The position numbers were made by a program, and so were the translations under genes. From the NCBI GenBank assembly GCA_000004985.1, contig GG739167.1: a DNA stretch of 3,057 nt; one strand, 5' to 3'. The notes beneath the pieces were generated by a model that saw only the letters and a program-made list of their open reading frames with translations, searched no databases and was not told where the DNA came from. Below, in pieces: positions 377-558 of this stretch (position 1 is its first letter; each line of letters begins with the position of its first letter). The DNA comes from Naegleria gruberi (lineage: Eukaryota).

Positions 377-520
377 GTGATATCAATTGTTTCATTTCAC
401 TGATATATTTAACTCCTTCATCACTAATTAAATTGTTACCAATATCAAGTGATATCAACCGTTTCATTTCACTTATATGTTTGGATCCTTCATCACCAAT
501 TTGATTGTTAGTAACTATAT
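377..520. repeat. Tandem duplication of a 72-bp unit in two copies, 377-448 and 449-520, about 130-275 bp upstream of the gene A ATG.
   Basis: Direct alignment of the two units.
Unit 1: GTGATATCAATTGTTTCATTTCACTGATATATTTAACTCCTTCATCAC...
Unit 2: GTGATATCAACCGTTTCATTTCACTTATATGTTTGGATCCTTCATCAC...
The first 48 positions match at 41 of 48 (85%). Overall identity is about 75% (54 of 72). The end of copy 2 merges into the left arm of the 23-bp palindrome. Confidence 0.7.
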
Positions 521-558
521 ATCTACTATTAAGTGTAATAGTAGATATATAGTTACTA
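509..558. repeat. Perfect inverted repeat with 23-bp arms and a 4-nt spacer, forming a hairpin or cruciform candidate.
   Basis: The left arm at 509-531 (TAGTAACTATATATCTACTATTA) is the exact reverse complement of the right arm at 536-558 (TAATAGTAGATATATAGTTACTA). The spacer is AGTG at 532-535. I checked this base by base. Both arms contain TATATA. The left arm overlaps GTTAGTA at 507-513, which is the reverse complement of the yeast branch-point consensus TACTAAC. Confidence 0.8.

What the first reader, a model, noticed from the sequence alone, without database searches (positions are those of the whole stretch)
377..558. 72-bp tandem duplication running directly into a perfect 23-bp-arm palindrome in the gene A promoter
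Two structured elements sit back to back between -130 and -310 relative to the gene A ATG. The first is a diverged tandem duplication of 72 bp in two copies, 85% identical over the first 48 bp, with the conserved core GTGATATCAA..GTTTCATTTCACT. The second is a perfect inverted repeat of 23 bp with a 4-bp spacer, extremely unlikely by chance even in AT-rich DNA. Its arms contain TATATA.

Promoter tandem duplications and long palindromes can alter expression or form cruciforms. This may also be the footprint of an excised or decayed element.
Basis: seen in the sequence. Interest (0 to 1): 0.55.

Follow-up and report, generated by a model that had tools for sequence, protein, structure and literature searches.

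The report
LRR gene relic with adjacent palindrome
The "72-bp promoter duplication" is really two 24-amino-acid leucine-rich repeats from the tail end of a broken Naegleria gruberi gene on the opposite strand, and the perfect 50-bp palindrome sits exactly where that fragment is cut off, so this is an ordinary gene relic with a real but unexplained hairpin at its edge.

Summary
Both observations are real. The 72-bp direct repeat lies at 377-510: 41/48 identical over the first 48 bp, 55/72 overall. The palindrome has perfect 23-nt arms at 509-531 and 536-558 with a 4-nt loop, about 1.7e-8 expected by chance. The interpretation changes. The window is Naegleria gruberi. On the minus strand the repeat reads NNQIGDEGSKHISEMKRLISLDIG / NNLISDEGVKYISEMKQLISQENR*. 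These are two 24-residue RNI-type leucine-rich repeats, a short tail and a stop codon. Pfam LRR_6 passes its cut-off, 8,510 proteins match, and the closest are N. gruberi "..IGDEGAKYISEMKQLTSL.." proteins at about 65-72% identity. The 72-bp period is therefore 24 codons of a gene family, not a local promoter duplication: the two units resemble units in other genes (16/21) as much as each other (15/21). The fragment has no usable start codon and no upstream LRR or N-terminal part anywhere in the window. It ends 115 bp before gene A, an eS30-like protein (NAEGRDRAFT_80950). It looks like a 5'-truncated gene relic. LRR homology stops within 2 nt of the palindrome edge, so the palindrome marks the truncation point. 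Its origin is inferred, not shown; a single template-switch or fold-back event is most likely. The N. fowleri homologue has neither element.

The parts
377..510 (.). The 72-bp-period direct repeat as observed (copy 1 at 377-448, copy 2 at 449-510+)
   Evidence: the repeat finder D1 and TRF score 198; 55/72 identical
366..572 (-). Open stretch of 69 codons bounded by stops (TAA at 575-573 upstream, TAA at 365-363 downstream): YFCDTSNYISTITLNSRYIVTNNQIGDEGSKHISEMKRLISLDIGNNLISDEGVKYISEMKQLISQENR. The only ATG is inside the LRR, at 467.
   Evidence: Pfam LRR_6 E=1e-5, 25.6 bits against cut-off 23.4
447..518 (-). LRR unit 2, (IVT)NNQIGDEGSKHISEMKRLISL. Homology to unit 1 and to the family is demonstrable from about 510-517 downstream.
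375..446 (-). LRR unit 1, the C-terminal-most unit: DIGNNLISDEGVKYISEMKQLISQ. It is followed by the tail ENR (374-366).
363..365 (-). Stop codon TAA of the LRR relic. Family members likewise end a few residues after a last SEMK motif.
   Evidence: C-termini of P0062 and P0009
509..531 (.). Left arm of the perfect palindrome. Its outer 2 nt (TA, 509-510) are shared with the LRR homology.
532..535 (.). 4-nt spacer (AGTG) at the palindrome centre
536..558 (.). Right arm of the perfect palindrome
564..623 (+). Possible degenerate continuation of the inverted symmetry. It is 31/60 identical to the reverse complement of 449-508, after a 5-nt offset (GTATC at 559-563). Suggestive only.
   Evidence: best of 5,893 placements, but others reach 30/60; no protein-level LRR signal on the + strand
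248..362 (-). 115-bp spacer between the relic's stop codon and the gene A ATG. It is the likely location of gene A's own promoter and CA-rich leader (inferred).
   Evidence: The 60 bp nearest the ATG are nearly identical in an independent metagenome contig. The N. fowleri homologue has a 127-bp upstream spacer with a similar CA-rich leader.
1..247 (-). Gene A, first 82 codons. 100% identical to N. gruberi NAEGRDRAFT_80950 (XP_002673304, 169 aa), which has an eS30-like N-terminus.

Best explanation
The repeat is protein-coding periodicity, not a promoter duplication. On the minus strand, 518..363 encodes the last two 24-residue RNI-type leucine-rich repeats, a 3-residue tail (ENR) and the stop codon of a member of the large Naegleria gruberi LRR family built of '..N.IGDEGAKYISEMKQLTSL.I..' units. 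That gene once lay head-to-tail upstream of gene A, and its stop codon is 115 bp from gene A's ATG. Its 5' part is gone. No start codon, N-terminal domain or further LRR unit exists anywhere in the 2.5 kb upstream, so what remains is most likely a non-functional relic (inferred). The 72-bp 'duplication' was inherited from the parent gene's repeat array. The perfect palindrome sits exactly at the truncation point. It is most likely a mutational by-product, not a regulatory device. The likeliest origin is a single event that wrote the reverse complement of neighbouring sequence next to itself, either replication template switching or fold-back repair of the break that truncated the gene. Gene A's own promoter probably lies in the 115-bp spacer. 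Shown: the LRR identity, the family, the organism, the truncation, and the coincidence of the boundary with the palindrome edge. Inferred: non-functionality, how the palindrome arose, and the absence of a regulatory role.
For: - Translation of the minus strand gives two LRR units in frame followed by a stop codon.
- Pfam LRR_6 scores above its gathering cut-off: 25.6 bits against 23.4, E=1e-5.
- An exhaustive phmmer search finds 8,510 proteins at E<=1e-3 and 36 at E<=1e-30, each with many matched stretches.
- The closest matches by identity are N. gruberi proteins XP_002675835, XP_002680560 and XP_002682170, at 63-72% over both units. They are made of tandem IGDEGAKYISEMKQLTSL units and end shortly after a last SEMK motif, like the relic.
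- tblastn of 150 family members gives 871 HSPs, all confined to 315-635 on the minus strand, and none elsewhere in the window.
- The units are 15/21 identical to each other and 16/21 to units in other genes.
- All near-invariant scaffold residues (N4, I6, G10, K12, I14, S15, E16, M17, K18, L20, S22) are intact in both units.
- The source is N. gruberi: gene A is 100% identical to XP_002673304.
- The window also carries two other incomplete gene pieces, whose full genes are annotated on other scaffolds. It is therefore a patchwork region.
- LRR homology ends at 510/511, 2 nt inside the palindrome, and does not resume beyond it.
- The palindrome is unique in the window. The exact 23-nt arm has no match in the viral, metagenome or prokaryotic collections.
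- The N. fowleri homologue of gene A has a 127-bp upstream spacer and no LRR or palindrome within 10 kb on either side.
- Template switching is documented to create perfect stems in a single event (PMC8794818; PMC5453318).
Against: - No outgroup or allelic sequence covering 363-560 could be obtained. The only near-identical contig stops 60 bp upstream of gene A. The ancestral state of the palindrome is therefore unknown.
- The two units carry no stop codon or frameshift and keep every scaffold residue. The relic is therefore either young or still used, for example as a terminal exon. An AG at 516-515 could serve as a splice acceptor.
- My attempt to show that the palindrome overwrote a third LRR unit in register failed statistically: DNA z=2.15, protein rank 596 of 5,966, and a gapped alignment not above shuffles.
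- The tendency of the two units to differ at family-variable positions is not significant (p=0.35).
- Genome-wide copy number of the palindrome was not testable.
Confidence: 0.75

Rival explanations
1. The palindrome is a tiny mobile element or a transposon end (a foldback or MITE-like pair of terminal inverted repeats, or a Helitron 3' hairpin). It inserted into the LRR gene, and its insertion or a later deletion truncated the gene. It would then belong to a dispersed repeat family.
For: Perfect inverted arms. The outermost TA on each side could be a Tc1/mariner-type TA target-site duplication (sequence). CTAG followed by T at 556-560 resembles a Helitron 3' terminus. The window holds another long-range inverted-repeat pair, 842-1106 against 2007-2080, and several displaced gene fragments. 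Mobile-element activity nearby is therefore plausible.
Against: Only 4 nt lie between the arms, and no known MITE is that small. TA is itself palindromic, so a target-site duplication cannot be told apart from the arm. LRR homology does not resume on the far side, so this is not a simple insertion. There is no second copy in the window even with 3 mismatches. There is no exact copy in the viral, metagenome or prokaryotic collections, though those collections do not contain the Naegleria genome. For a Helitron, the hairpin overlaps the terminus, it is AT-rich, and no A|TC 5' end exists in 248-376 (sequence).
Confidence: 0.15
2. The two LRR units are the terminal exon of a live, unannotated or mis-modelled LRR gene. 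The palindrome lies in its intron or 5' region.
For: The 69-codon frame is open. All scaffold residues are intact. The C-terminal tail and stop codon are typical of the family. The spacing to the next gene is normal. A possible acceptor ATATAG| lies at 520-515 (sequence).
Against: No LRR, F-box-like or other family-related coding sequence exists anywhere upstream in the window at E<0.05. An intron would therefore have to exceed about 2.5 kb in what I recall to be a short-intron genome. There is no ATG except inside the LRR. None of the 150 best database hits contains this peptide; the best is 72% identical. The neighbouring sequence is a patchwork of other truncated gene pieces.
Confidence: 0.08
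3. One reading: a locally arisen tandem duplication plus a cruciform-forming palindrome that together act as upstream regulatory elements of gene A.
For: The elements lie at -130 to -311 from the gene A ATG. The palindrome would form a stable hairpin or cruciform.
Against: The repeat is explained by coding periodicity on the same strand as gene A and ends with its own stop codon. The copies are not each other's closest relatives. The N. fowleri homologue has only a 127-bp upstream spacer with neither element. The 60 bp proximal to the ATG are what is conserved in a near-identical metagenome contig.
Confidence: 0.04
4. The palindrome is a small hairpin-RNA gene (miRNA- or shRNA-like).
For: A 23-bp perfect stem is Dicer-product sized. 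Weak Rfam similarity to several miRNA precursor models (best 30.5 bits, E=0.0045). Template switching is proposed to create new miRNA hairpins (10.1101/2023.04.19.537475, seen).
Against: All Rfam scores are far below the gathering thresholds (30 against 90 bits). They reflect only generic hairpin shape. The loop is 4 nt and the stem has no mismatches, unlike natural precursors. There is no conservation or expression evidence.
Confidence: 0.03

Closest known systems
Naegleria gruberi RNI-type LRR protein family (e.g. XP_002682170 / NAEGRDRAFT_62798, XP_002680560 / NAEGRDRAFT_64117, XP_002675835 / NAEGRDRAFT_68813); Pfam LRR_6 (PF13516)
   Same: The period is 24 residues, which equals 72 bp. The consensus is L-x-I-x-x-N-x-I-G-D-E-G-A-K-Y-I-S-E-M-K-Q-L-T-S. 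Identity is 63-72% over two units. The protein ends a few residues after the last SEMK motif.
   Different: Only two units remain. There is no start codon, no N-terminal (often F-box-like) region and no further units. It is not represented among the 150 best database hits. It is a fragment, not a gene.
Template-switch mutations that create perfect hairpins (quasipalindrome or fold-back copying; PMC5453318, PMC8794818)
   Same: A short, perfect reverse-complement repeat with a 4-nt loop lies in otherwise unrelated sequence. It is unique to the locus, of a size these events produce, and located at a rearrangement boundary.
   Different: The defining evidence is an ancestral sequence without the repeat, together with consistent switch points. 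Neither could be obtained here. The assignment is by exclusion and plausibility only.
Foldback elements and MITEs (DNA-transposon derivatives)
   Same: Perfect terminal inverted repeats, possibly flanked by TA.
   Different: Total length is 46-50 bp with a 4-nt interior. No second copy was found. The flanking LRR sequence is not restored on the other side.
Promoter tandem duplications and enhancer repeats
   Same: Position upstream of a gene and two head-to-tail copies.
   Different: The period is exactly 24 codons of a recognisable protein repeat, read in frame to a stop codon. The copies diverged within a gene family, not at this locus.

Membership tests
RNI-type leucine-rich repeat (Pfam LRR_6) / N. 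gruberi SEMKQL LRR family | Profile match at or above the curated threshold | tested here: met
   LRR_6 scores 25.6 bits against a gathering cut-off of 23.4, E=1e-5, with 2 stretches
RNI-type leucine-rich repeat (Pfam LRR_6) / N. gruberi SEMKQL LRR family | Tandem units of fixed length (24 aa) with the L-x-[IL]-x-x-N-x-[IL] strand motif and the G-D/x-E-G-A/V-K helix segment | tested here: met
   Units at 518..447 and 446..375 keep N4, I6, G10, K12, I14, S15, E16, M17, K18, L20 and S22, as in 21 family units
RNI-type leucine-rich repeat (Pfam LRR_6) / N. gruberi SEMKQL LRR family | Significant similarity to named family members | tested here: met
   phmmer finds 8,510 hits. N. gruberi proteins match at 63-72% identity, with tblastn E down to 4e-17
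RNI-type leucine-rich repeat (Pfam LRR_6) / N. gruberi SEMKQL LRR family | Complete gene: start codon, N-terminal region and an array of several units | tested here: not met
   The frame is closed by TAA at 575-573. The only ATG is inside a unit. No other family-like coding sequence occurs in the window. I therefore file it as a fragment or relic of the family, not as a member gene.
Template-switch / fold-back generated hairpin | Perfect reverse-complement copy of adjacent sequence, far beyond chance | tested here: met
   23/23 complementary arms with a 4-nt loop; 1.7e-8 expected; shuffle maximum 12
Template-switch / fold-back generated hairpin | An ancestral or allelic sequence lacking the repeat, with changes explained by one switch event | not testable with these tools
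   The N. gruberi genome and related strains are not retrievable. Contig L004 ends before the region.
Template-switch / fold-back generated hairpin | One arm recognisable as the original (here LRR) sequence in register | tested here: inconclusive
   In-register DNA score z=2.15. Protein profile rank 596 of 5,966. Gapped alignment not above shuffles.
MITE / foldback transposon | Multiple dispersed copies | not testable with these tools
   There is no second copy in the window or in the viral, metagenome or prokaryote collections. The host genome itself could not be searched.
MITE / foldback transposon | Target-site duplication, with the host sequence continuing across the insertion | tested here: not met
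   The TA flanks cannot be separated from the arms. LRR homology does not resume beyond 558.
Locally arisen promoter tandem duplication | The copies are each other's closest relatives and are non-coding | tested here: not met
   15/21 identical to each other against 16/21 to units of other genes. Both copies are in-frame LRR coding sequence.
Rfam miRNA precursor families (mir-3012, mir-1277 and others) | Score at or above the gathering threshold | tested here: not met
   The best score is 30.5 bits against a threshold of 90

The most novel reading that the evidence does not exclude
The perfect 50-bp hairpin was created in one template-switch or fold-back event at the broken end of a gene. It could be transcribed as a newborn shRNA- or miRNA-like Dicer substrate in a heterolobosean, or it could act as a cruciform-forming fragile site that drove the patchwork of truncated gene pieces seen in this 3-kb region.
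Probability: 0.05. Interest if true: 0.45.

Novelty: new member of a known kind. Interest (0 to 1): 0.15.

Why it matters
Mostly as a correction. A repeat whose period is a multiple of three and that lies next to a gene should be translated on both strands before it is called regulatory. Here that step turns a "promoter duplication" into an unannotated relic of a very large Naegleria LRR gene family. The family is expanded in N. gruberi, so decaying fragments like this are expected by-products of its turnover.

The palindrome is the only unusual item. If comparison with other N. gruberi strains showed that it arose in one step at the truncation point, it would be a clean natural example of template-switch or fold-back repair at a gene breakpoint in a little-studied eukaryotic lineage. 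That would be a modest result, not a new kind of system.

Tried and rejected
1. A third, decayed LRR unit lying under the palindrome in exact 72-nt register, with the palindrome as a length-preserving overwrite. BLAST extends ungapped through it (YIS at 551-543), but the statistics do not hold: DNA z=2.15, PSSM rank 596 of 5,966, and a gapped local alignment not above shuffles. I dropped this as a claim.

2. A larger decayed inverted duplication of the LRR unit to the right of the palindrome. Identity is 31/60 at a 5-nt offset, the best of 5,893 placements, but other placements reach 30/60 and there is no protein signal. I kept it only as 'suggestive'.

3. Differences between the units concentrated at family-variable positions. 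The trend is in that direction (entropy 1.54 against 0.84) but is not significant once anchored columns are removed (p=0.35).

4. A Helitron 3' end (hairpin plus CTAG|T). There is no 5' A|TC in the spacer, the hairpin overlaps the terminus, and it is AT-rich. Rejected.

5. An RNA gene. Rfam gives only sub-threshold generic hairpin hits, and there are no tRNAs.

6. Retrieving the N. gruberi locus, its allele or its paralogues. Eleven exact-product look-ups were made. Only N. fowleri and one 635-bp metagenome contig were retrievable. The metagenome scans for the palindrome arm and for gene A relatives were empty.

7. Pfam on ten other open segments of the window found nothing.

8. The word-indexed protein search missed gene A when it was queried alone but found it in a concatenated query. 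Its negative result for the LRR peptide therefore carries no weight.

Full report
**Observation**

Both features exist at the stated coordinates. The direct repeat is 377-438 / 449-510, with start-to-start spacing of 72 nt and 84% identity over 62 nt. TRF reports 377-510, period 72, score 198. Identity is 41/48 over the first 48 bp and 55/72 over the whole unit, and the homology stops at 510/511.

The inverted repeat is 509-531 / 536-558: 23 nt, perfect, with a 4-nt spacer. With this base composition about 1.7e-8 such hairpins are expected. The longest arm in 100 dinucleotide shuffles was 12. As single-stranded DNA it folds at -19.6 kcal/mol, z = -8.4. No other perfect hairpin with arms >=10 nt occurs in the window. 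The maximum arm in 20.5 kb of N. fowleri DNA is 10. It is therefore not a simple-sequence artefact.

Gene A begins at ATG 247 on the minus strand, which places the elements at -130 to -311.

**What the repeat is**

Seventy-two bp is 24 codons. The minus strand is open from 572 to 366 and ends at TAA 365-363. It reads ...YIVTNNQIGDEGSKHISEMKRLISLDIGNNLISDEGVKYISEMKQLISQENR*. That is two 24-residue leucine-rich repeats of the ribonuclease-inhibitor type.

- Pfam LRR_6 matches above its gathering score: 25.6 bits against 23.4, E=1e-5.
- An exhaustive phmmer search of 1.84 billion representatives gave 8,510 hits at E<=1e-3, most with many matched stretches.
- The closest by identity are Naegleria gruberi predicted proteins XP_002675835, XP_002680560 and XP_002682170. 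They consist of tandem units such as NNIGVEGAKYISEMKQLTSLDIS.
- tblastn gives 63-72% identity over the two units.
- Both units keep every near-invariant scaffold residue of the family.
- The relic ends a few residues after a final SEMK motif, as P0062 and P0009 do.
- The two units are 15/21 identical to each other and 16/21 to units in other N. gruberi proteins. The repeat was therefore inherited from a multi-unit gene and did not arise at this locus.

**Organism and neighbourhood**

A concatenated query of the flanking coding pieces identified the source as N. gruberi. Gene A's 82 window codons are 100% identical to NAEGRDRAFT_80950 (XP_002673304), a 169-aa protein with an eS30-like N-terminus.

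The right end of the window (2793-3056) is 100% identical to residues 83-170 of NAEGRDRAFT_64045. Residues 1-82 of that protein are encoded nowhere in the window. Minus strand 2649..2569 encodes the first 27 residues of NAEGRDRAFT_75693, then diverges and runs into a stop codon. The three annotated genes sit on scaffolds of 339, 938 and 160 kb. The window is therefore a patchwork that contains several incomplete gene copies.

**Relic rather than gene**

tblastn of all 150 family hits places every significant HSP (871) within 315-635 on the minus strand. No N-terminal region and no further LRR unit appears anywhere else in the window. The frame is closed by TAA at 575-573, and the only ATG lies inside unit 2. 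The stop codon lies 115 bp from gene A's ATG, a normal head-to-tail spacing. The N. fowleri homologue (FDP41_006432) has 127 bp to its upstream neighbour.

I therefore read 518..363 as the 3' end of a former upstream neighbour whose 5' part was lost. Non-functionality is inferred. The absence of any disabling mutation in the two units means the relic is young or, less likely, still an exon.

**The palindrome**

Copy-to-copy and family homology ends at 510/511, 2 nt inside the left arm, and does not resume beyond 558. The palindrome therefore marks the truncation point and is not a simple insertion.

I tested whether it overlies a third LRR unit in register. BLAST extends through it and YIS lines up at 551-543, but the statistics are weak: DNA z=2.15, PSSM rank 596 of 5,966, and the gapped alignment is not above shuffles. 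I do not claim it.

The inverted symmetry may continue in degenerate form. Minus strand 508..449 against plus strand 564..623 is 31/60 identical, the best of 5,893 placements, but other placements reach 30.

The arm has no other copy in the window at up to 3 mismatches. The exact 23-nt arm has no match in the viral, metagenome or prokaryotic collections. The N. gruberi genome itself could not be searched.

The best-fitting mechanism is a single event that copies the reverse complement of adjacent sequence, either replication template switching or fold-back repair of the break. Template switching is documented to create perfect stems in one step (PMC8794818; PMC5453318). This is an inference by exclusion. 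A miniature foldback or MITE remains possible (about 0.15).

**Regulatory reading**

Nothing supports a locus-specific regulatory role. The N. fowleri homologue lacks both elements and shows no LRR sequence within 10 kb on either side. An independent, near-identical metagenome contig conserves the 60 bp proximal to the ATG but ends before the relic. Rfam gives only sub-threshold generic hairpin matches.

**Verdict**

The main interpretation (a promoter duplication) is replaced by an ordinary one, coding periodicity of a truncated LRR gene relic. The palindrome is genuine and marks the breakpoint, but its origin is unresolved. Interest is low. In kind, this is a new (unannotated) member of a known class.

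Noticed in passing
window 842-1106 and 2007-2080: A 74-bp segment at 2007-2080 is the reverse complement of three pieces on the left: 842-854 (11/13), 857-874 (18/18), 1011-1036 (24/26) and 1090-1106 (17/17). The left copy is therefore interrupted by inserts of about 136 bp and about 53 bp. This could be the terminal inverted repeats of a roughly 1.2-kb non-autonomous DNA transposon, or an old inverted duplication.
   Followed up: partly
window 2569-2649 (minus strand): These bases encode MSGNNKKGTPQRKQHAVSSPSHPKQRV, identical to the first 27 residues of N. gruberi NAEGRDRAFT_75693 (345 aa, annotated on a 160-kb scaffold). The sequence then diverges and hits a stop codon, and a GTAAGG lies just downstream. 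It looks like a displaced 5' gene fragment, possibly a first exon.
   Followed up: partly
window 2793-3056 (plus strand): This stretch is 100% identical to residues 83-170 of NAEGRDRAFT_64045 (174 aa, annotated on a 938-kb scaffold). Residues 1-82 are encoded nowhere in the window, and the open frame has no ATG. Gene A is annotated on a 339-kb scaffold. Either this is a partial duplicate or one of the gene models or assemblies is inconsistent.
   Followed up: partly
window 1-247 (minus strand); L001 10001-10531: Gene A belongs to a small Naegleria family: NAEGRDRAFT_80950, its paralogue NAEGRDRAFT_54652 (77%), and N. fowleri FDP41_006432 (about 50%). The first 30 residues or so resemble ribosomal protein eS30 (Pfam PF04758, E about 1e-6). 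They are followed by an unrelated region with a conserved NHKKWHRNHP[KQ]DG motif. Function is unknown.
   Followed up: partly
L004 (ENA ERZ929261, 635-bp metagenome contig): An environmental contig carries a gene A that differs from the window copy only at the N-terminus (MARMYHGG against MAIMYGG). Its 60 bp upstream are nearly identical to the window spacer. An N. gruberi-like strain is therefore present in that metagenome. The contig ends before the LRR relic.
   Followed up: yes
window 1661-1743 and 1961-1982: Short tandem arrays with periods of 22 and 11 nt, rich in AAGTC / TCGATC motifs, lie at 1677-1743. A related 22-nt direct repeat (TCAAGTCA.GTCG...AAGTC) recurs 300 bp apart. Both lie inside the region bounded by the long-range inverted repeats.
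   Followed up: no
method note: The word-indexed protein search returned nothing for gene A's 82 residues queried alone. It found the 100%-identical N. gruberi protein when the same residues were part of a longer concatenated query. Negative results from that tool on short queries should not be trusted.
   Followed up: yes
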